IMG/VR virus record: IMGVR_UViG_2529292736_000006
Length of the DNA stretch: 9,636 nt
Reading direction: 5' to 3' (one strand)
Source of the DNA: a virus
Taxonomy: Duplodnaviria > Heunggongvirae > Uroviricota > Caudoviricetes
This document shows, one piece after another, positions 1 through 9,636 of the stretch (the first letter of the stretch is position 1; the number at the start of each line of letters is the position of its first letter). The notes beneath the pieces are model-generated. The model did no database searches. It was not told where the DNA came from and was given only the letters and a program-made list of their open reading frames with translations. The translations under genes and the position numbers were made by a program.

Positions 1-1284
1 TTACTTCTTCGCCTCTGCAACCACTTTACTACCCACGCCGCGGTTATTGTATTCCCACATGCGGTTGTAGTTAGTGTCATTCAGATTGCGCTGTATTTCG
101 TCGTTATCATCTACGCTGCCGGTATTACCCGCAAACGGACGATTAGAGATCACCGCATCGGCCCACGGTTTAGCCGTGTTAAAACCTTCGTTGATGGCGC
201 TATCACGGATCACCACCTGACCGTTGGTATTGGCATCAACATCCAGCGAGCGGCCCAGTTGCGCCACACCATCACCGAAAGCATTGAAACGGCTGTTTAC
301 GGCGAGGAAACCGTAGTAAATGTTGGACAGCGTAGCCGGTGCAAACACATACGCTTCTTGCTGAGTACGTGAGTTCACCACGCGGAATTCGGTGTTATCG
401 AACACCACTGCGCCGCGACCAGAAACGATATCCACATCCCCTTCAATGTAGCTGTTGGTCACCAGCGTACGCGGCTGACGGTTGGTTTCCAGACGGTTCT
501 GCACACCGCTGTTGGTGACAAAGAAGGTGTTCTGACGACCGAGAATGTTAACGTTGTTAATCTGCACCAGGTCACCATCAGTACGCAGTGCCACCGCCGG
601 ATGGTTACCTGCATCTACGCTATCGCCCAGCGTGTTTTCGATGGTCAGATTTTGCAGTTGCAGGCCATTGTTTTGTGACCAGAAGACCGCAGAGCAGAGA
701 ACACCGATACTGTCGCTGCGTTTGCTCTGGCAGCTATCGTACATATACCACGCTGGTTTACCTGGCATATATTTGCCGCGCGGGTTGACGTCGTGACGCC
801 AGTCGGCAGGGCTCATGCCACCATCAAGGGAAAGCCCAATCTTCACATCAATCGGTTTTTCACCTGTACCGTACAGAGTAATTCCACCCGGAGCGGCAGG
901 GACATATACCGTTCCCTGATACTCACCAGGCATCACGGCAATATACTGGCGCTTGTTGGTACGCTTGATAATTGCCGCATCTACCGCCGCCTGAATCGTG
1001 GTATGCGTTACACCTTGAGTGCCCGCCGGGCCGACAACAAAGTCAGGTTGCGCAGGCAGGGTAATCGGGGAAGGATTCCACGCTGCAGCACCTGGTGTCA
1101 GGGATGCAAAATAGTGTTGAGCATCGAAATTCTGCGCTTCTTTTGCCGACAGAATCGGGCGAGAAGAGGTACCAGGCGCGGTTTGATCAGAAGGACGTTG
1201 ATCGGGCGGGGTTGAGCTACAGGCGGTCAGCGTCACGCCAAAAGCCAATGCCAGCGCCAGACGGGAAACTGAAAATGTGTTCAC
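1..1284 (-). CDS. ybhC: YbhC, pectinesterase-family outer-membrane lipoprotein (427 aa, host gene flanking attB-lambda)
   Basis: Full-length minus-strand ORF with GTG start at 1284 and TAA at 1-3. N-terminus MNTFSVSRLALALAFGVTLTACSS has a lipoprotein signal with lipobox LTAC. Recognised from memory as E. coli YbhC, which lies on the gal side of attB-lambda. Confidence 0.9.
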   Translation of the reverse strand: MNTFSVSRLALALAFGVTLTACSSTPPDQRPSDQTAPGTSSRPILSAKEAQNFDAQHYFASLTPGAAAWNPSPITLPAQPDFVVGPAGTQGVTHTTIQAAVDAAIIKRTNKRQYIAVMPGEYQGTVYVPAAPGGITLYGTGEKPIDVKIGLSLDGGMSPADWRHDVNPRGKYMPGKPAWYMYDSCQSKRSDSIGVLCSAVFWSQNNGLQLQNLTIENTLGDSVDAGNHPAVALRTDGDLVQINNVNILGRQNTFFVTNSGVQNRLETNRQPRTLVTNSYIEGDVDIVSGRGAVVFDNTEFRVVNSRTQQEAYVFAPATLSNIYYGFLAVNSRFNAFGDGVAQLGRSLDVDANTNGQVVIRDSAINEGFNTAKPWADAVISNRPFAGNTGSVDDNDEIQRNLNDTNYNRMWEYNNRGVGSKVVAEAKK

Positions 1285-2974: not shown

Positions 2975-3403
2975 TTATTCAATATCTATTCCTGTAATAT
3001 CTTTTATCTTTTTCCTTGCAAAGCCTTTTGCTAGTGATTTTGAAACACTTATTAGTGTACTAATTCCCTCATCCTTAAAGTTTGTTTTTATAGTTTGCCA
3101 GACCTCCTTTTGACGCAAGTCAGCAATAAAATCATGCCCTCTTGCTGTCAACCTCAGTGGTACTTCGATCCAACTATATCCAACACCTTCCCCTAACTCG
3201 TTGGACATTATATGACCGAACCCAGGTTTTCCATCAACCCTGACTATTAATTCGTAGTCGCATAATAATCGCATATGGAAAATAAAATTTTGGTCATATC
3301 TATTAAAGCCATTATCCTCTAGTTCACTAAGCATCGTGTCAGGGCCATGAGTTTTTTCGAATGCGATAAGTAGATCTTTTAGATATTGCTGGTCTAATTT
3401 CAT
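2975..3403 (-). CDS. Hypothetical 142-aa protein, AT-rich accessory gene (moron); function unknown
   Basis: ORF with ATG at 3403 and TAA at 2975-2977, with a strong GGAGG ribosome-binding site 5 nt upstream. Composition is visibly AT-rich compared with the flanking lambda-like genes. I do not recall it in lambda at this position. A tentative resemblance to small phage DUF2513-type proteins (a ...LTARGHDFIADLRQKEVW... motif) is from memory only. Confidence 0.8.
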   Translation of the reverse strand: MKLDQQYLKDLLIAFEKTHGPDTMLSELEDNGFNRYDQNFIFHMRLLCDYELIVRVDGKPGFGHIMSNELGEGVGYSWIEVPLRLTARGHDFIADLRQKEVWQTIKTNFKDEGISTLISVSKSLAKGFARKKIKDITGIDIE

Positions 3404-3431: not shown

Positions 3432-3770
3432 TTATATCATTAATTTTGTTTCGTGCCAGCCTTTGGTCACCCAGCATTGTGAGTCACCATTACACGGGCA
3501 TGAATTAACAGGAACTCTCTCGCCGCACTTACCGCAACGTTTTCTGCTGATCGATTTTATACGCCAGCGCACACGTGCATCATCCTGGCGGCTCAGTAAC
3601 GCGATGTACTCACCAAACTCGTAAGGCGCATGCCTGAAGCGGCGCGTGGCTCAGTTACGATCCAGCATTTCAATTTCCTGAGCATCAAGTACAAGCTCCA
3701 GCTTACGCATACCGGATGATGCTTGCTTGGCTCTCTGATCGACTTTGCGCTCTGCTGATGATTTAGCCAT
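3432..3770 (-). pseudogene. Ea8.5-like ORF (N-terminal helical segment plus C-terminal Cys-rich zinc-ribbon-like segment) interrupted by an in-frame TGA
   Basis: A single minus-strand frame reads MAKSSAERKVDQRAKQASSGMRKLELVLDAQEIEMLDRN, then TGA at 3651-3653, then ATRRFRHAPYEFGEYIALLSRQDDARVRWRIKSISRKRCGKCGERVPVNSCPCNGDSQCWVTKGWHETKLMI and TAA at 3432-3434. Candidate starts are ATG 3770 and ATG 3710; the latter gives about 92 codons, close to the 93-aa lambda Ea8.5. Position relative to xis/orf55 and the two-part architecture suggest an Ea8.5 homologue. This is an inference, not a sequence identification. Confidence 0.45.
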
Positions 3771-3963
3771 TCTGCTTTTCCTGCATTAGGAGAAAGACAA
3801 TCATGGCGGCGCGGATACTTCCGGTATCTTTTTACTCGATATTACCCTTCAATGGCACATACAAGAAGAGAGCCATCAACAGGAGTGAGTGAGGAATCGA
3901 CAACCAGCAACGCTTAATTATCTATAGTGTCGTATTTGCTTCATAAAATATGGCGAATAACAC

Positions 3964-3998
3964 AAAGCCCGCAGCAGCTCATTGTGCGGGCTTTTCTT
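3964..3998. terminator. Strong hairpin terminator, possibly bidirectional, downstream of the 204-aa gene
   Basis: Perfect 10-bp stem AAAGCCCGCA / TGCGGGCTTT (3964-3973 and 3985-3994) with an 11-nt loop. The plus strand is followed by CTTTTCTTAT and the minus-strand reading by UUUGUGUUAUU. It lies about 65 bp downstream of the 204-aa ORF stop. Confidence 0.5.
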
Positions 3999-4063: not shown

Positions 4064-4678
4064 TTATCTAAAAGTCTTTCCACTTTTAACGTCTAGGTAT
4101 ATTCTGTTCGACAACGTCATTCCTCCGCAATATGTGAAATAGATGTTTTTCCCCTTATTGCTTGATGCCATCCACCCTCCGATTTCCTTAAAGTCGCTTT
4201 CCGTGCAGACCCCTTCGTTTATTAACTTCCTAGCTGCCGAAGAAAACTCTTTTTTGTATATACGGTAGTCATCAGATCCTTTGATTAAAGTATCATCTCC
4301 GCTCGCATTTTCAGCAGGATCTGATGGCCTTTCACTGCTAAGATCACTAAGTTTAACCCATTCTGAAAACTTGCCATTGACGATTCCGTTTTTTCTTGTG
4401 CAGGATTTATTACCTTCTTTAATATATTCGCTTTCCCCTCCCACACATGAGGCTGAATATGGCTCAGTTATACGAACCCATTCACCTTTTTTTTCTAGAA
4501 AATCTACGCCTTCCCTGAAAAATAGTTTCCCAGCCACTCCGCATTTACTTGAAGGGCAGGTATGTCTTTCCGTTCGATCAACAACAACCCAAAGTCTTGA
4601 TTCATTTTTTGCCATTGCCGATGGTATTTGAGATGAGACAATTAACGTAAGCCCTAAAATTAGTATTGATTTTTTCAT
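4064..4678 (-). CDS. Secreted or periplasmic Cys-rich hypothetical protein (204 aa), AT-rich accessory gene (moron); function unknown
   Basis: ORF with ATG at 4678 and TAA at 4064-4066; AAGGA ribosome-binding site 7 nt upstream. The N-terminus MKKSILILGLTLIVSSQIPSAMA-KNE looks like a Sec signal peptide with an AxA cleavage motif and no lipobox Cys. The mature part has 7 Cys and the gene is AT-rich. Confidence 0.85.
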   Translation of the reverse strand: MKKSILILGLTLIVSSQIPSAMAKNESRLWVVVDRTERHTCPSSKCGVAGKLFFREGVDFLEKKGEWVRITEPYSASCVGGESEYIKEGNKSCTRKNGIVNGKFSEWVKLSDLSSERPSDPAENASGDDTLIKGSDDYRIYKKEFSSAARKLINEGVCTESDFKEIGGWMASSNKGKNIYFTYCGGMTLSNRIYLDVKSGKTFR

Positions 4679-4763
4679 TGTAATTTCCTTTTACTTTTTA
4701 CAAAGCGTTTAATCATGGCTGATTATCTTTAAGCGTAGTAACAGCCTTGTGCGAAACATGTTA

Positions 4764-4768
4764 CCAAA
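4764..4768. repeat. IS2 target-site duplication CCAAA (left copy)
   Basis: CCAAA directly abuts the IS2 terminus at 4769 and is repeated at 6100-6104. Confidence 0.85.
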
Positions 4769-4779
4769 TGGATTTGCCC

Positions 4780-5685
4780 CTATATTTCCAGACACCTGTT
4801 ATCACTTAACCCATTACTGGCCTGCTGCCGCAGATATTCCCGTGGCGAGCGATAACCCAGTGCACTATGCGGATGCCATTCGTTATAATGCTCGAACGCC
4901 TCTGCAAGGTTCTTTGCTGCCGTTAACCCGTCTGGTTTAGGCATGATACTGATGTAGTCACGCTTTATCGTTTTCACGAAGCTCTCTGCTATGCCGTTAC
5001 TCTCCGGACTCCGCACCGCCGTGTTCTTCGGTTCAAGCCCCAACATCCGGGCAAACTGCCGTGTTTCATTAGCCCGGTAGCATGAACCATTATCCGTCAG
5101 CCACTCTACTGGAGACGCCGGAAGCTCGTTGCCGAAGCGGCGTTCCACCGCTCCCAGCATTACGTCCTGTACTGTTTCACTGTCGAAGCCGCCCGTAGTG
5201 ACTGCCCAGTGCAGTGCCTCACGGTCACAGCAGTCCAGCGCGAACGTGACTCGCAGTTTTTCTCCGTTATCACAGCGGAACTCGAACCCGTCAGAGCACC
5301 ATCGTTGATTGCTTTCTTTCACGGCCACTTTGCCAGTATGTGCCCGTTTCGATGGCGGTACAGCGGTTTTTCGCTCAAGCAACAGCGCATTCTGGCGCAT
5401 GATCCGGTAAACACGTTTGGCATTGATCGCAGGCATACCATCAAGTTCGGCCTGTCTGCGAAGCAGCGCCCATACCCGACGATAACCATACGTGGGCAGC
5501 TCTCCGATAACATGGTGTATACGGAGAAGCACATCCGTATCATCTGAGTGACGGCTGCGGCGACCATCTTTCCAGTCATCGGTTCGTCTGAGAATTACGT
5601 GCAACTGCGCACGCGACACCCGGAGACAACGGCTGACTAAGCTTACTCCCCATCCCCGGGCAATAAGGGCGCGTGCGCTATCCAC
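4780..5685 (-). CDS. insD: IS2 transposase OrfB (InsD, DDE integrase-like domain; normally expressed as an OrfAB fusion)
   Basis: 301-aa ORF ([34 protein letters not shown]...NRCLEI) recognised as IS2 InsD. It overlaps orfA in the -1 frame. Confidence 0.9.
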
Positions 5686-6008
5686 TTTTTTGCACGCCCG
5701 TATTCAACGGCTTCTTTAAGGAGTTCATTTTCCATCGTTTTTTTGCCGAGCAGGCGCTGGAGTTCTTTAATCTGCTTCATGGCAGCAGCAAGTTCAGAGG
5801 CAGGAACGACCTGCTCTCCTGCGGCCACAGCAGTAAGACTTCCCTCCTGGTATTGCTTGCGCCAGAGAAATAACTGGCTGGCTGCCACACCGTGTTGCCG
5901 GGCAACAAGGGAGACCGTCATTCCCGGTTCAAAACTCTGCTGAACAATAGCGATCTTTTCCTGTGTAGTACGCCGTCTGCGTTTCTCCGGTCCTAAGACA
6001 TCAATCAT
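5643..6008 (-). CDS. insC: IS2 OrfA (InsC, helix-turn-helix regulator, 121 aa)
   Basis: [56 protein letters not shown]... with ATG at 6008. The track's 136-aa version starts at an upstream in-frame ATG inside the inverted repeat and is probably not used. Confidence 0.9.
5685..5691 (-). other. IS2 A6G slippery motif for programmed -1 frameshifting (OrfA to OrfAB)
   Basis: AAAAAAG on the minus strand (plus-strand CTTTTTT at 5685-5691) in the orfA/orfB overlap, where IS3-family elements frameshift. Confidence 0.6.
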
Positions 6009-6099
6009 CTGCTCTCCAATGACTAGTCTAAAAACTAGTATTAAGACTATCACTTATTTAAGTGATATTGGTTGTCTGGAGATTCAGGGGGCCAGTCTA

Positions 6100-6104
6100 C
6101 CAAA
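6100..6104. repeat. IS2 target-site duplication CCAAA (right copy)
   Basis: Identical 5-mer directly abutting the other IS2 terminus. Confidence 0.85.
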
Positions 6105-6312
6105 TCGCCATTTCAGTGTATCCGCAGTTAGGCTGCCACTTCAAGGATTCCTAATTACATGGTACGTAAGCGTAAAATCCCGTTGGTTGTCGGGTAATAA
6201 CTCTGATCAAATCTCCCTTGTCTTTTGCTCTTACGTATGCAGCTCTTGTGTATTCAACCCAGGCCTCCAGTTCAGCAATACGCTTACTTCCATCCGAGAT
6301 AACACCTTCTAC
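6100..6312 (-). other. Protein-like in-frame continuation of the Ea22-like ORF beyond its TGA (disrupted C-terminal part)
   Basis: Same frame as the 83-aa ORF. After TGA (6313-6315) it reads VEGVISDGSKRIAELEAWVEYTRAAYVRAKDKGDLIRVITRQPTGFYAYVPCN, then TAG (6151-6153), then ESLKWQPNCGYTEMAIW up to the IS2 junction. No ATG or GTG start occurs in this stretch and the other two frames are closed. Confidence 0.45.
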
Positions 6313-6564
6313 TCACGCTGCTCGTTGAGTTTTGATTTTTGCTGTCTCCAGCTCAACACGCAGTTTCCTCACCGTTAGCGCAATATCCTCGTTCTCCTGG
6401 TCGCGGCGTTTGATGTACTGCTGGTTTCTTTCCCGTTCATCCAGCAGTGTCAGCACAATCGATGGTGTTACCAGCTCATGGAAAAGGTCCGCGTCAAATC
6501 CCCAGTTGTCATGCATTGCCTGCTCTGCCGCTTCACGCAGTGCCTGAGAGTGAATTACGCTCAC
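6313..6564 (-). CDS. Ea22-like N-terminal segment (83 aa as a conventional ORF; coiled-coil-like)
   Basis: ORF MSVIHSQALREAAEQAMHDNWGFDADLFHELVTPSIVLTLLDERERNQQYIKRRDQENEDIALTVRKLRVELETAKIKTQRAA. Its start overlaps the upstream TraR-like gene stop by 4 nt (ATGA). Its position relative to exo, orf60a and orf63 matches where I recall lambda ea22 starting. Confidence 0.6.
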   Translation of the reverse strand: MSVIHSQALREAAEQAMHDNWGFDADLFHELVTPSIVLTLLDERERNQQYIKRRDQENEDIALTVRKLRVELETAKIKTQRAA

Positions 6565-6782
6565 TTCGAACCTCTCTGTTTACTGATAAGTTCCAGATCC
6601 TCCTGGCAACTTGCACAAGTCCGACAACCCTGAACGGCCAGGCGTCTTCGTTCATCTATCGGATCGCCACACTCACAACAATGAGTGGCAGATATAGCCT
6701 GGTGGTTCAGGCGGCGCATTTTTATTGCTGTGTTGCGCTGTAATTCTTCAATTTCTGATGCTGAATCAATGATGTCTGCCAT
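6561..6782 (-). CDS. TraR/DksA-family C4 zinc-finger protein (73 aa)
   Basis: MADIIDSASEIEELQRNTAIKMRRLNHQAISATHCCECGDPIDERRRLAVQGCRTCASCQEDLELISKQRGSK. A CxxC...(17)...CxxC motif with a preceding helical segment is typical of phage and plasmid TraR-like proteins. Confidence 0.8.
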   Translation of the reverse strand: MADIIDSASEIEELQRNTAIKMRRLNHQAISATHCCECGDPIDERRRLAVQGCRTCASCQEDLELISKQRGSK

Positions 6783-7172: not shown

Positions 7173-7364
7173 TCATACCTGGTCTCTCTCATCTGCTTCT
7201 GCTTTCGCCACCATCATTTCCAGTTTTTGTGAAAGGGATGTGGCTAACGTATGAAATTCTTCGTCTGTTTCTACTGGTATTGGCACAAACCTGATTCCAA
7301 TTTGAGCAAGGCTATGTGCCATCTCGATACTCGTTCTTAACTCAACAGGAGATGCTTTGTGCAT
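7173..7364 (-). CDS. orf63: Lambda orf63-like protein (63 aa)
   Basis: [63 protein letters not shown]. Sequence and position (overlapping orf60a and lying upstream of exo) match my recollection of lambda orf63. Confidence 0.8.
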   Translation of the reverse strand: MHKASPVELRTSIEMAHSLAQIGIRFVPIPVETDEEFHTLATSLSQKLEMMVAKAEADERDQV

Positions 7365-7519
7365 ACAGCCCCTCGTTTATTATTTATCTCCTCAGCCAGC
7401 CGCTGTGCTTTCAGTGGATTTCGGATAACAGAAAGGCCGGGAAATACCCAGCCTCGCTTTGTAACGGAGTAGACGAAAGTGATTGCGCCTACCCGGATAT
7501 TATCGTGAGGATGCGTCAT
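7337..7519 (-). CDS. orf60a: Lambda orf60a-like protein (60 aa)
   Basis: [60 protein letters not shown]. The ATG at 7519 overlaps the exo stop as ATGA, suggesting translational coupling. The track's 62-aa version uses an ATG two codons upstream. Confidence 0.8.
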
Positions 7520-8196
7520 CGCCATTGCTCCCCAAATACAAAACCAATTTCAGCCAGTGCCTCGTCCATTTTTTCGATGAACTCCGGCACCATCTCGTCA
7601 AAACTCGCCATGTACTTTTCATCCCGCTCAACCACGACATAATGCAGTCCTTCACGCTTCATACGCGGGTCATAGTTGGCAAAGTACCAGGCATCTTTAC
7701 GTGTCACCCACATGCTGTACTGCACCTGGGCCATGTAAGCCGACTTTATGGCCTCGAAACCACCGAGCCGGAACTTCATGAAATCCCGGGAGGTAAACGG
7801 GCATTTCAGCTCAAGGCCATTGCCGTCACTGCATAAACCATCGGGAGAGCAGGCGGTGCGCATACTTTCGTCGCGATAGATGATCGGGGATTCAGTAACA
7901 TTCACGCCGGAAGTGAATTCAAACAGGGTTCTGGCGTCGTTCTCGTACTGTTTTCCCCAGGCCAGCGCCTTAGCATTAACTTCCGGAGCCACACCGGTGC
8001 AAACCTCAGCCAGCAGGGTGTGGAAGTAGGACATTTTCATGTCAGGCCACTTCTTTCCTGAGCGGGGCTTTGCTATCACGTTGTGAACTTCTGAAGCGGT
8101 GATGACGCCGAGCCGTAATTTGTGCCATGCATCATCCCCCTGTTCGACAGCTCTCACGTCGATCCCGGTACGCTGCAGGATAATGTCCGGTGTCAT
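7516..8196 (-). CDS. exo: Lambda exonuclease (Red alpha, 226 aa)
   Basis: 226-aa [65 protein letters not shown]...GFVFGEQWR, recognised as lambda Exo. The start overlaps the bet stop by 4 nt. Confidence 0.97.
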
Positions 8197-8978
8197 GCTG
8201 CCACCTTCTGCTCAGTGGCTTTCTGTTTCAGGAATCCGAGAGCTTTCACTGCTTCGACCTGTGTCAGTTCTGACGATGCGCGAATGTCGCGGCGAAATAT
8301 CTGGGAACAGAGCGGCAATAAGTCGTCATCCCATGTTTTATCCAGGGCAATCAGCAGAGTGTTAATCTCCTGCATGGTTTCATCGTTAACCGGAGTGATG
8401 TCGCGTTCCGGCTGACGTTCTGCAGTGTATGCGGTATTTTCGACAATGCGCTCGGCTTCATCCTTGTCATAGATACCAGCAAATCCGAAGGCCAGACGGG
8501 CACACTGAATCATGGCTTTATGACGTAACATCCGTTTGGGATGCGACTGCCACGGCCCCGTGATTTCTCTGCCTTCGCGGGTTTTGAATGGTTCGCGGCG
8601 GCATTCATCCATCCACTCGGTAACGCAGATCGGATGATTACGGTCCTTGCGGTAAATCCGGCATGTGCAGGATTCATTGTCCTGCTCAAAGTCCATGCCA
8701 TCAAACTGCTGGTTTTCATTGATGATACGGGACCAGCCATCAACGCCCACCACCGGAACGATGCCGTTCTGCTTGTCAGGGAAGGCGTAAATTTCTTTCG
8801 TCCACGGATTAAGGCCGTACTGGTTGGCGACGATCAACAATGCGATGAACTGCGCATCGCTGGCATCGCCTTTAAATGCCGTCTGGCGAAGAGTGGTGAT
8901 CAGTTCCTGTGGGTCGACAGAATCCATGCCGACACGTTCAGCCAGCTTCCCAGCCAGCGTTGCGAGTGCTGTACTCAT
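8193..8978 (-). CDS. bet: Lambda Beta recombinase (Red beta, single-strand annealing protein, 261 aa)
   Basis: 261-aa [69 protein letters not shown]..., recognised as lambda Bet. Confidence 0.97.
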
Positions 8979-8983
8979 CCGTT

Positions 8984-9280
8984 TTATACCTCTGAATCAA
9001 TATCAACCTGATGGTGAGCAATGGTTTCAACCATGTACCGGATGTGTTCTGCCATGCGCTCCTGAAACTCAACATCGTCATCAAACGCACGGGTAATGGC
9101 TTTTTTGCTGGCCCCGTGGCGTTGCAAATGATCGATGCATAGCGATTCAAACAGGTGCTGGGGCAGGCCTTTTTCCATGTCGTCTGCCAGTTCTGCCTCT
9201 TTCTCTTCACGGGCGATCTGCTGGTAGTGACGCGCCCAGCTCTGAGCCTCAAGACGATCCTGAATGTAATAAGCGTTCAT
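8984..9280 (-). CDS. gam: Gam (RecBCD inhibitor), N-terminally truncated to the 98-aa GamS-equivalent by an IS insertion
   Basis: From ATG at 9280 the frame reads [60 protein letters not shown]...VDIDSEV, which matches lambda Gam from Met-41 onward. Sequence upstream of 9280 is not lambda-like and belongs to the IS21-family end. The track's 131-aa ORF (GTG start at 9379) is a read-in fusion with IS sequence. Confidence 0.85.
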
Positions 9281-9636
9281 TGTCAGCGCCAATGATATAA
9301 GACAGTAATTCACCATTTGGATTGTCCGCTCCACCCAACATGTTGTTTCCTTAAGGTTCCTACACCACAAAGGGAACACTCATGCTGAGCAGAGAGGATT
9401 TTTACATGATAAAGCAAATGCGCCAGCAAGGTGCGTATATTGTTGATATTGCCACTCAGGTTGGTTGCTCTGAGCGGACCGTCAGACGGTACCTGAAATA
9501 CCCGGAACCTCCGGCCAGAAAAACACGCCACAAAATGGCCAAACTCAAGCCGTTCATGGACTATATAGATATGCGTCTGGCTGAGAACGTCTGGAACGGC
9601 GAGGTCATCCTGGCGGAAATCAAAGCGATGGGTTAT
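9281..9636 (+). mobile_element. IS21-family insertion sequence, left end (partial; continues beyond the window)
   Basis: Lambda gam homology stops abruptly at 9280/9281. The new sequence begins TGTCAGCGCC... with internally repeated TGTC/GACA motifs, and istA starts about 100 bp in, as is typical for IS21-family left ends. Confidence 0.8.
9382..9636 (+). CDS. istA: IS21-family transposase IstA, N-terminal 85 codons (helix-turn-helix region); truncated by the window end
   Basis: MLSREDFYMIKQMRQQGAYIVDIATQVGCSERTVRRYLKYPEPPARKTRHKMAKLKPFMDYIDMRLAENVWNGEVILAEIKAMGY; open to the last base of the window. Recognised as the IstA N-terminus of IS21-like elements. Confidence 0.85.
   Translation, partial: MLSREDFYMIKQMRQQGAYIVDIATQVGCSERTVRRYLKYPEPPARKTRHKMAKLKPFMDYIDMRLAENVWNGEVILAEIKAMGY

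What the first reader, a model, noticed from the sequence alone, without database searches (positions are those of the whole stretch)
4064..4678. Secreted Cys-rich 204-aa protein as a candidate periplasmic superinfection-exclusion or host-interaction factor
It has a clear Sec signal peptide (cleavage after AMA), no lipobox and 7 cysteines in the mature part, suggesting a disulfide-bonded periplasmic protein. It is AT-rich and lies between an upstream region now occupied by IS2 and a strong downstream terminator. Prophage-encoded envelope proteins at moron positions frequently block phage DNA entry or modify receptors. The function is an inference only.
Basis: partly seen in the sequence, partly recalled or inferred. 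Interest (0 to 1): 0.6.

Follow-up and report, generated by a model that had tools for sequence, protein, structure and literature searches.

The report
Exported SH3b prophage cargo protein
This is a real, well-conserved prophage gene for a small exported protein made of a cell-wall-binding-type SH3 domain and a previously undescribed second domain, but nothing yet shows that it blocks other phages.

Summary

In E. coli the gene sits in 2.4% of complete genomes. It always lies in the accessory stretch of the early-left (pL) operon of a lambda-like prophage at att-lambda, between a truncated ea22 and xis/int. Here an IS2 that is private to this strain lies 90 nt upstream. Relatives lie next to integrases or in moron hot spots of Pseudomonas and Aeromonas elements, and also in core chromosomal contexts.

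The export and disulfide reading is supported. The superinfection-exclusion reading has no positive evidence. The most likely role is a non-enzymatic envelope- or peptidoglycan-binding accessory protein.

The parts
4064..4678 (-). CDS for the 204-aa exported two-domain protein (stop codon at 4064-4066)
   Evidence: ORF list and translation. It is 100% identical to a cluster of 406 E. coli sequences and matches phrog_8310 over its full length. dN/dS is 0.06-0.16.
4610..4678 (-). Signal peptide, residues 1-23 (MKK / SILILGLTLIVSS / QIPSAMA, predicted cleavage AMA|KN)
   Evidence: Sequence features and hydropathy. pLDDT is below 70 only here. The AxA site is conserved in close homologues and replaced by lipoboxes in distant ones. 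About 81% of 227 family proteins carry an N-terminal hydrophobic segment, lipobox or TM segment.
4340..4600 (-). SH3b domain, residues ~27-113, with an inserted loop (~70-106). It carries Cys41-Cys46 and Cys78-Cys93.
4067..4294 (-). C-terminal alpha/beta domain, residues ~129-204. Motifs SDD(Y/F), GGW.KS, YFTYCGG and NRIYL(D/N), with the invariant pair Cys158-Cys184. This is an undescribed domain family.
4686..4690 (-). Shine-Dalgarno AAGGA, 7 nt before the ATG
   Evidence: Read directly from the sequence.
3957..3998 (.). Bidirectional intrinsic-terminator-like hairpin ~70 nt downstream of the stop codon. The stem is 3965-3974 / 3985-3994, followed by a T-rich tail on either strand.
   Evidence: The terminator scan calls it on the + strand. 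The minus-strand RNA fold shows the same 10-12 bp G+C-rich stem followed by UUUGUGUUAUU.
4769..6099 (-). IS2 (1331 bp; orfA 5643-6053 and orfB 4780-5685 on the minus strand) inserted 90 nt upstream of the gene. Target duplications CCAAA lie at 4764-4768 and 6100-6104.
   Evidence: Alignment with the IS-free allele in strain FORC_081. The junction is absent from all 5426 complete E. coli genomes.
6313..6564 (-). Truncated ea22-like gene (83 aa), the upstream neighbour in the pL operon. Homology to lambda stops at about 6266.
   Evidence: Pfam Ead_Ea22. RefSeq annotates it as incomplete. Lambda homology covers only query 1531-2100 of the IS-free locus.

Best explanation
The gene encodes a Sec-exported, soluble periplasmic protein of about 181 mature residues, held by three disulfides. 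It is built from two non-enzymatic modules. The N-terminal module is a bacterial SH3 (SH3b) domain of the kind that docks cell-wall hydrolases and other envelope proteins onto peptidoglycan or peptide ligands. The C-terminal module is a very conserved 80-residue alpha/beta domain that no database has described. Its aromatic, acidic and glycine-rich motifs (SDD, GGW, YFTYCGG, NRIYLD) look like a ligand-binding surface rather than a catalytic site.

I therefore read the protein as an envelope-binding accessory protein, most likely peptidoglycan-associated. It travels as single-gene cargo on mobile elements. In this lambda-like prophage it sits in the dispensable stretch of the pL (early-left) operon, between ea22 and xis. 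It is probably transcribed mainly with that operon on infection or induction, because no promoter of its own is evident.

Shown here: the gene is real and under purifying selection; it has signals for export; its cysteines co-vary in pairs; the SH3b fold; the novelty and breadth of the C-terminal domain; its cargo status.

Inferred: periplasmic localisation, disulfide formation, ligand binding, and timing of expression. Its biological pay-off for phage or host is unknown.
For: - Coding and selected: 82 homologues; dN/dS 0.06-0.16 within E. coli alleles and among Pseudomonas/Aeromonas copies.
- Export: n/h/c signal peptide with AxA. Relatives carry an SPI-type signal, a lipobox or an N-terminal TM anchor in about 81% of 227 proteins. 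Some relatives have a cytoplasmic zinc ribbon, then a TM segment, then SH3b and the C-terminal domain.
- Disulfides: among relatives the Cys patterns are 100 with all six, 36 with only the last pair, and 6 lacking only the middle pair.
- No enzyme signature: there is no catalytic-domain partner among 51 longer relatives, only SH3b, zinc ribbon, one Ank and one IalB. No Pfam, NCBIfam or PDB match exists for the C-terminal domain.
- Cargo status: the gene is in 132 of 5426 complete E. coli genomes, and in the five copies inspected it lies in the same prophage module. It is in 1 of 50,697 phage records. Its GC is 8-19 points below the surroundings in most hosts. It lies next to an integrase in five Pseudomonas species and between Q and the lysis genes in an Aeromonas prophage.
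- Single-gene function: no conserved neighbour across about 40 loci.
Against: - Nothing here measures localisation, disulfides or ligand binding.
- This protein's own SH3_3 score (16.1 bits) is below Pfam's cut-off.
- SH3b domains in Gram-negative bacteria are functionally heterogeneous, so peptidoglycan binding is an extrapolation from the fold class.
- The conserved S-D-D and Tyr/Trp residues of the C-terminal domain could still be a catalytic or metal site of an unknown enzyme.
- The promoter scan is a simple consensus search. An unrecognised or activator-dependent promoter, or read-out from the adjacent IS2, could make the gene lysogen-expressed.
Confidence: 0.6

Rival explanations
1. Superinfection exclusion or entry block. 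From the periplasm the protein protects the lysogen. It might shield peptidoglycan, or inhibit the tail-associated lysozyme or DNA-entry step of incoming phages, by analogy with T4 Spackle. Alternatively it might mask a receptor.
For: It is exported and disulfide-stabilised. It is single-gene cargo at hot spots where phages keep lysogenic-conversion and defence genes. In Aeromonas it lies among an Eco29kI-type restriction-modification system and DUF2971 between Q and the holin. In Pseudomonas islands it is the first gene after the integrase. An SH3b fold could bring it to the cell wall, where tail lysozymes act. It is under strong purifying selection while mobile between genera, with 86% nt identity between an Aeromonas and a Pseudomonas copy.
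Against: There is no PADLOC hit, and the PHROG family has unknown function. No sequence or fold similarity to any solved exclusion protein or lysozyme inhibitor was found. The gene lies inside the pL operon with no detectable promoter on its strand, so it may be silent in the repressed prophage. Family members also sit in core chromosomal contexts: nap/GGDEF in Vibrio and metW/pheT in a metagenome scaffold. Two E. coli genomes carry IS1-disrupted copies.
Confidence: 0.15
2. Lysis- or cell-wall-remodelling accessory. The protein binds peptidoglycan and modulates the phage endolysin or host hydrolases at or before lysis, for example by timing lysis or protecting against premature lysis.
For: The SH3b fold class is that of endolysin and autolysin wall-binding modules. 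In two non-E. coli phage contigs the gene is close to lysis enzymes. In L098 it is divergent from a GH19-type enzyme, and in L089 it lies about 2.5 kb after a phage lysozyme. Expression from an early or induced operon would fit a role during lytic growth.
Against: In the E. coli prophage the gene is in the early-left arm, not in a lysis cassette (lambda's lysis genes lie in the late right operon; no lysis gene is in the window). Proximity to lysis genes elsewhere is also what a generic moron hot spot would give. Chromosomal and island copies have no lysis genes nearby. No catalytic domain is ever fused to it.
Confidence: 0.1
3. Orphan periplasmic immunity protein. The conserved C-terminal domain neutralises a periplasm-acting toxin, such as a T6SS peptidoglycan-targeting effector or a bacteriocin, and the mobile element spreads the immunity.
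Against: No toxin or effector gene was seen next to it in the loci whose neighbours were annotated, and no conserved neighbour emerged across about 40 loci. The pyocin S genes near the P. monsensis copy lie outside the island and have their own immunity genes. The fold matches are far below significance.
Confidence: 0.07
4. Decaying or spurious ORF with no function, kept by chance in a degraded prophage.
For: The surrounding module is littered with pseudogenes: a truncated ea22, a frameshifted UmuD-like gene, and IS2. Two genomes carry IS1 inside the ORF.
Against: The length is exactly 204 codons from E. coli to Pseudomonas and Aeromonas at 60-69% identity. The AlphaFold model is high-confidence.
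Confidence: 0.02

Closest known systems
Bacterial SH3 (SH3b, Pfam SH3_3 PF08239) wall-binding modules of endolysins, lysostaphin and NlpC/P60 hydrolases
   Different: There is no catalytic partner domain. The SH3b carries a ~35-residue disulfide-bearing insert and two extra cysteines. It is fused to an undescribed C-terminal domain. The host is Gram-negative with a periplasmic location. The ligand is unknown.
Lambda-type morons that encode envelope proteins (Bor lipoprotein, Lom outer-membrane protein). Comparison from my own knowledge.
   Same: It is a single accessory gene for an exported protein carried by a lambdoid prophage, it differs in base composition from its neighbours, and it is followed by a terminator.
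   Different: Bor and Lom lie in the late region and are expressed from their own promoters in the lysogen. This gene lies in the pL early-left accessory stretch with no recognisable promoter. It shows no sequence relation to them in the Pfam scan and is neither a lipoprotein nor a beta-barrel.
T4 Spackle (Sp), a periplasmic superinfection-exclusion protein that inhibits the gp5 tail lysozyme. Comparison from my own knowledge.
   Same: It is a small, Sec-exported, soluble periplasmic phage protein. A peptidoglycan-proximal mode of action is conceivable.
   Different: There is no sequence or fold similarity. As I recall, Spackle is all-helical and single-domain. No exclusion phenotype has been tested here.
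Cor (phi80/N15/HK022) and T5 Llp receptor-blocking lipoproteins. Comparison from my own knowledge.
   Same: These are prophage- or phage-encoded envelope proteins that act on phage entry.
   Different: They are lipoproteins that target FhuA. This protein has no lipobox and no homology to them.
PHROG family phrog_8310 (unknown function)
   Same: Full-length match, E 3.6e-136. This is the same family.
   Different: The PHROG entry carries no annotation. The two-domain anatomy and the wider distribution of the C-terminal domain are added here.

Membership tests
Bacterial SH3 domain (Pfam SH3_3, PF08239) | Sequence-profile match at or above Pfam's gathering score (27 bits) | tested here: inconclusive
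   The window protein scores 16.1 bits, E 0.013, residues 40-72, which is below the cut-off. However, 34 of 37 aligned homologues match (best E 5.9e-8), and 32 of 51 longer relatives match at E<=1e-3 (best 1.6e-14).
Bacterial SH3 domain (Pfam SH3_3, PF08239) | SH3b beta-barrel fold | tested here: met
Bacterial SH3 domain (Pfam SH3_3, PF08239) | Binding of peptidoglycan or a peptide ligand | not testable with these tools
   This needs sacculus pull-down or muropeptide binding with purified protein.
Sec / signal peptidase I secreted proteins | Positively charged n-region, 10-15-residue hydrophobic core, small residues at -3 and -1 | tested here: met
   MKK / SILILGLTLIVSS / QIPSAMA|K. The AxA site is conserved in close homologues, and a lipobox or TM anchor replaces it in distant ones. 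No dedicated predictor such as SignalP was available.
Sec / signal peptidase I secreted proteins | Demonstrated cleavage and periplasmic localisation | not testable with these tools
   Experimental: PhoA fusion, fractionation, or N-terminal sequencing.
Bacterial lipoproteins (signal peptidase II) | Lipobox [LVI][ASTVI][GAS]C at the end of the signal peptide | tested here: not met
   The first Cys is residue 41. The LPAM_1 hit at E 0.067 is below cut-off. Distant relatives do have lipoboxes.
Phage moron (independent transcription unit inserted between phage genes) | Base composition different from neighbours, and absence from related phages at the same position | tested here: met
   The ORF is 39% GC against about 50% in the flanks. 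Lambda and its relatives match only from ea22 onwards. The gene is in 1 of 50,697 phage records and in 2.4% of E. coli genomes.
Phage moron (independent transcription unit inserted between phage genes) | Own terminator downstream | tested here: met
   Hairpin at 3965-3994 with T-rich tails.
Phage moron (independent transcription unit inserted between phage genes) | Own promoter upstream | tested here: not met
   No sigma-70-like site was found on the minus strand in the 250 nt upstream, either in the window or in the IS-free allele. This was a simple consensus scan only, so a weak or activated promoter is not excluded.
Known superinfection-exclusion / anti-phage defence proteins (SieA/SieB, Cor/Llp, T4 Sp/Imm, PADLOC models) | Sequence homology to a described family | tested here: not met
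   PADLOC gave 0 hits. Pfam and NCBIfam gave none. The PHROG family has unknown function. The profile search of PDB sequences gave only SH3b at E 0.16 and artefactual hits to designed proteins.
Known superinfection-exclusion / anti-phage defence proteins (SieA/SieB, Cor/Llp, T4 Sp/Imm, PADLOC models) | Fold similarity to a solved exclusion protein | tested here: not met
Known superinfection-exclusion / anti-phage defence proteins (SieA/SieB, Cor/Llp, T4 Sp/Imm, PADLOC models) | Exclusion phenotype | not testable with these tools
   This needs plating, adsorption and DNA-injection assays.
Periplasmic lysozyme inhibitors (Ivy, MliC/PliC) | Pfam family match | tested here: not met
   No such family appears at E <= 0.1 in the window protein or in 37 homologues.

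The most novel reading that the evidence does not exclude
The protein is the founding member of a new class of periplasmic phage-defence or envelope-conversion factors. The SH3b domain would anchor it to peptidoglycan. The undescribed SDD/GGW/YFTYCGG domain would capture and neutralise a component of incoming phages (for example a tail lysozyme) or a periplasm-acting toxin. This would explain why a single exported gene hops between lambdoid prophages, Pseudomonas integrase islands and Aeromonas prophages.
Probability: 0.15. Interest if true: 0.65.

Novelty: new variant of a known kind. Interest (0 to 1): 0.35.

Why it matters
If the reading is right, this adds an uncharacterised exported domain family of about 530 clusters at 50% identity, absent from Pfam and NCBIfam and without a PDB fold match. 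It occurs alone or behind an SH3b domain and is often carried by prophages and islands. That makes it a concrete, cheap target: one 0.6-kb gene, a natural phage host, and a cultured phage (Chlobot) that carries it. It could be tested for what periplasmic cargo proteins do for temperate phages. As it stands, it is a well-delimited hypothetical protein rather than a discovery. The exclusion idea is only one of several untested options.

Tried and rejected
- Pfam, NCBIfam, PADLOC and PHROGs scans of the protein and of 37 homologues gave only SH3b and an unannotated PHROG.
- Profile searches of PDB sequences gave apparently significant hits (E 1e-6 to 5e-9) to de novo designed TIM barrels (sTIM11 and relatives). 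I rejected these as artefacts. No single stretch passes on its own. The score is the sum of four copies of one designed helix (SDDWRDLKEAWKKGADILI) that resembles the family's SDDYRxYKxxFxKAAxxLI helix.
- The afdb50 library was not available.
- A search for a conserved gene neighbour across about 40 genome loci and several phage contigs found none outside the Pseudomonas island.
- DUF2513 as a possible partner co-occurs only in the E. coli module and in one Marinobacter locus, which is too little to claim a link.
- Sigma-70 promoter scans upstream found nothing, with and without IS2.
- Rfam found nothing in the window.
- Literature searches for the accession, the PHROG id, the motif, phage Chlobot and DUF2513 returned nothing relevant.
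- The antisense ORFs inside the gene (for example 4281-4631 on the + strand) were dismissed. The minus-strand frame is the one conserved and under purifying selection.

Full report
**Setting**

The window is the left end of a lambda-like prophage integrated at att-lambda, next to ybhC (1-1284, minus strand). All phage genes below are on the minus strand.

| Coordinates | Feature |
|---|---|
| 1419-2489 | lambda-type integrase |
| 2467-2685 | excisionase |
| 2725-2892 | 55-aa ORF |
| 2975-3403 | DUF2513 protein |
| 4064-4678 | the ORF in question |
| 4769-6099 | IS2 |
| 6313-6564 | truncated ea22-like gene |
| 6561-6782 | TraR/DksA-like gene |
| 7173-7364, 7337-7525 | DUF1382 and DUF1317 |
| 7516-8196 | exo |
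| 8193-8978 | bet |
| 8984-9379 | gam |

The gene is therefore co-oriented with, and distal in, the early-left (pL) operon. It lies in the stretch between ea22 and xis where lambdoid phages differ from one another.

**Checking the observation**

The 204-codon ORF is there, on the minus strand, with an ATG start and an AAGGA ribosome-binding site 7 nt upstream.
- *Signal peptide.* The N-terminus is a textbook Sec signal peptide (MKK / SILILGLTLIVSS / QIPSAMA|KN). There is no lipobox: the first cysteine is residue 41.
There are six cysteines, at residues 41, 46, 78, 93, 158 and 184.
- *Composition.* The ORF is 39.3% GC against 48.1% for the window. In the IS-free allele the low-GC trough (35-41%) runs from the downstream hairpin to about 150 nt upstream of the start codon, between flanks of about 50% GC.
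- *IS2.* Alignment with the IS-free allele of strain FORC_081 defines IS2 as 4769-6099 (1331 bp). It has 5-bp CCAAA duplications and lies 90 nt upstream of the ATG. No complete E. coli genome among 5426 has this junction, so the insertion is private to the source strain.
- *Terminator.* About 70 nt after the stop codon lies a G+C-rich hairpin (3965-3994) with T-rich tails on both strands. It is plausibly a bidirectional intrinsic terminator.

**Is it a real gene?**

Yes.
- A search of 5.8 billion proteins gave 82 homologues. A 406-member E. coli cluster is identical. E. fergusonii copies are 89% identical. Pseudomonas and Aeromonas proteins of exactly 204 residues are 60-69% identical. A tail of relatives at 35-55% follows.
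- Pairwise dN/dS is 0.06-0.16 among E. coli alleles and 0.05-0.10 among Pseudomonas and Aeromonas copies.
- It matches phrog_8310 (unknown function) over its full length.

**Anatomy**

With a 37-sequence alignment, AlphaFold gives a confident model (pLDDT 90.5). Only residues 1-25 have low confidence, as expected for a cleaved signal peptide.
- *Pfam support.* SH3_3 scores 16.1 bits in this protein, below the 27-bit cut-off. It is found in 34 of 37 homologues and 32 of 51 longer relatives, with best E 1.6e-14.
- *Insert.* The SH3b here carries a roughly 35-residue insert that two distant members lack.
- *C-terminal domain.* Residues ~129-204 were modelled separately (pLDDT 91.8). The topology is three helices followed by a three-stranded sheet.
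- *Rejected hits.* The only "significant" PDB sequence hits are to de novo designed TIM barrels. They arise from summing four copies of one look-alike helix and I rejected them.

**The C-terminal domain is a family of its own**

A profile of this domain against 1.84 billion representatives finds 530 proteins at E <= 1e-3 and 401 at E <= 1e-10. The domain was at or within ~10 residues of the C-terminus in most of the 150 listed hits. A few listed proteins are exceptions, among them P0097, P0139 and P0152.
- *Architectures.* It occurs either alone in 95-130-aa proteins or behind other modules. Among the longer proteins, SH3b is by far the commonest partner. An N-terminal zinc ribbon plus a membrane segment occurs in six. 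There is one ankyrin protein and one IalB protein. No catalytic domain is ever found.
- *Annotation.* Of the 120 best hits listed, those that carry a source name are called "hypothetical protein" or "exported hypothetical protein"; most have no name at all.
- *Conserved residues.* The invariant or near-invariant residues are S135-D136-D137, F145, L152, C158, G167-G168-W169, S172, Y180-F181-T182-Y183-C184-G185, N191, Y194-L195 and G200. This pattern is aromatic, acidic and glycine-rich. To me it looks more like a binding surface than a catalytic centre, but that is an inference.

**Export and disulfides**

By simple sequence rules, about 81% of 227 family proteins have an N-terminal hydrophobic signal (108), a lipobox (41) or an internal membrane segment after an N-terminal extension (35). 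Many of the rest look like truncated metagenomic fragments, while others are longer proteins whose first 70 residues simply show no hydrophobic segment.

Cysteine patterns across relatives that contain both domains:

| Pattern | Number of proteins |
|---|---|
| All six cysteines present | 100 |
| Only the last pair (158/184) present | 36 |
| Only the middle pair (78/93) missing | 6 |

Single losses are rare. Loss in pairs is what three disulfides (41-46, 78-93, 158-184) in an oxidising compartment would predict.

**Distribution and context**

*E. coli.* The ORF occurs in 132 of 5426 complete genomes (2.4%). In the five E. coli or phage copies inspected it lies in the same module: ea22', the gene, UmuD-like remnants, DUF2513, xis and int. 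This includes two records labelled as plasmids that hold the whole prophage arm. Two genomes have IS1 inside the ORF.

*Sequenced phages.* Among 50,697 phage records only Escherichia phage Chlobot carries the gene, in the same position. Homology to lambda itself begins only inside ea22, so the gene belongs to the mosaic accessory segment.

*Other genera.*
- In five Pseudomonas species it is the first gene after the integrase of a small island.
- In an Aeromonas hydrophila prophage it lies between the Q antiterminator and the holin, among other cargo that includes a restriction-modification system and DUF2971.
- In other viral contigs it lies after a lysis cassette or next to a GH19-type enzyme.
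- Stand-alone C-terminal-domain genes sit in prophage-like regions of Agrobacterium and in a Marinobacter island.
- Other members are in ordinary chromosomal surroundings: metW/pheT in a metagenome scaffold and nap/GGDEF-EAL in three Vibrio species.

*General points.* No neighbour is conserved across the family. In most hosts the gene is 8-19 GC points below its surroundings. An Aeromonas copy and a Pseudomonas copy share 86% nucleotide identity. Taken together, this is a self-sufficient single-gene function that moves horizontally.

**Expression**

No sigma-70-like promoter was found on the gene's strand in the 250 nt upstream, with or without IS2. Two of the three moron criteria are met: deviant composition and a downstream terminator. 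The third, an own promoter, is not. The simplest reading is transcription with the pL operon on infection or induction. N-modified polymerase would be expected to read through the hairpin; that is my own knowledge of lambda, not tested here. In this strain IS2 now separates the gene from pL. I could not test whether this silences the gene or drives it by read-out from the element.

**Most likely mechanism**

I commit to the following reading, with confidence 0.6: a Sec-exported, three-disulfide, non-enzymatic periplasmic protein. Its SH3b domain docks on peptidoglycan or another envelope ligand, and its conserved C-terminal domain provides a second binding surface. It is carried as accessory cargo. 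The steps I regard as shown and those I regard as inferred are listed under the best explanation.

The rivals, with my confidence in each:

| Rival | Confidence |
|---|---|
| Superinfection exclusion or entry block | 0.15 |
| Lysis or cell-wall-remodelling accessory | 0.10 |
| Orphan periplasmic immunity protein | 0.07 |
| Non-functional remnant (refuted by the selection data) | 0.02 |

**Comparison with what is known**

The protein works like, and by fold belongs to, the SH3b class. It is not a member of any described exclusion, defence or lysozyme-inhibitor family. It resembles the lambda morons bor and lom only in being an envelope-directed accessory gene of a lambdoid prophage. It differs from them in location, in lacking a detectable promoter, and in fold. 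The combination of SH3b with this unannotated domain, and the domain itself, are to my knowledge undescribed. Literature searches found nothing.

**Verdict**

The export and disulfide interpretation is supported. The exclusion function is untested and has no positive evidence. Novelty is modest: a new variant (SH3b plus a new domain) of a known kind (an exported prophage accessory protein). Interest is 0.35.

Noticed in passing
window 4769-6099 (target duplications 4764-4768 and 6100-6104): A complete 1331-bp IS2 with 5-bp CCAAA target duplications, with its transposase genes co-oriented with the target gene. The junction is absent from all 5426 complete E. coli genomes searched, so the insertion is recent and strain-specific. 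It now separates the gene from the pL operon.
   Followed up: partly
window 6266-6564: The ea22-like gene is cut down to 83 aa. Homology to phage lambda stops at about 6266, which marks the upstream recombination boundary of the AT-rich cassette.
   Followed up: partly
window 3432-3900: Gene remnants lie between the terminator and DUF2513. One is a ~113-codon ORF that has an internal stop here and in FORC_081 but is intact in other strains (L013, L014). Another is a short fragment annotated 'DNA repair protein' or UmuD-like. Neither gives a Pfam hit.
   Followed up: partly
window 2975-3403; L108 5401-5763: A DUF2513 gene lies just downstream of the family member in the E. coli prophage. Another lies immediately after a stand-alone C-terminal-domain gene in a Marinobacter litoralis island, which also holds NERD, PIN and MqsA-like genes. 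No other locus shows this pairing, so it may be coincidence.
   Followed up: partly
L002 6402-12411; L006, L017, L018 equivalents: Four Pseudomonas species share a small island: integrase, this gene, then conserved unknown ORFs of ~131-190 aa and ~333-351 aa, plus KilA-N or pRha-like regulators. It could be a defective prophage or a satellite-like element.
   Followed up: no
L005 8001-8615 vs L015 6001-6615: The Aeromonas hydrophila copy and the Pseudomonas sp. BBP2017 copy are 86% identical at the nucleotide level (dS 0.64). This points to fairly recent transfer between genera.
   Followed up: no
hits H22 (NZ_CM173849.1) and H39 (NZ_AP039439.1): In two E. coli genomes the ORF itself is split by an IS1 insertion, so the gene is dispensable for the host under at least some conditions.
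   Followed up: no
hits H50 (NZ_CP174001.1, 43 kb) and H40 (NZ_CP081691.1, 304 kb): Records labelled as plasmids carry the whole int-xis-...-exo-bet-gam arm, including this gene. The 43-kb record looks like a circular phage genome rather than a plasmid.
   Followed up: no
L029 5089-5988 and 5998-6591: In a Hoeflea genome, a second SH3b protein (299 aa, SH3_3 E 3e-13) lies directly upstream of the family member. This suggests tandem paralogues.
   Followed up: no
residues 123-161 of the protein (window ~4196-4312): The helix SDDYRIYKKEFSSAARKLI resembles the repeated designed helix of the de novo TIM barrels (sTIM11 family). This produces misleading E-values of 1e-6 to 5e-9 in PDB profile searches.
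   Followed up: yes
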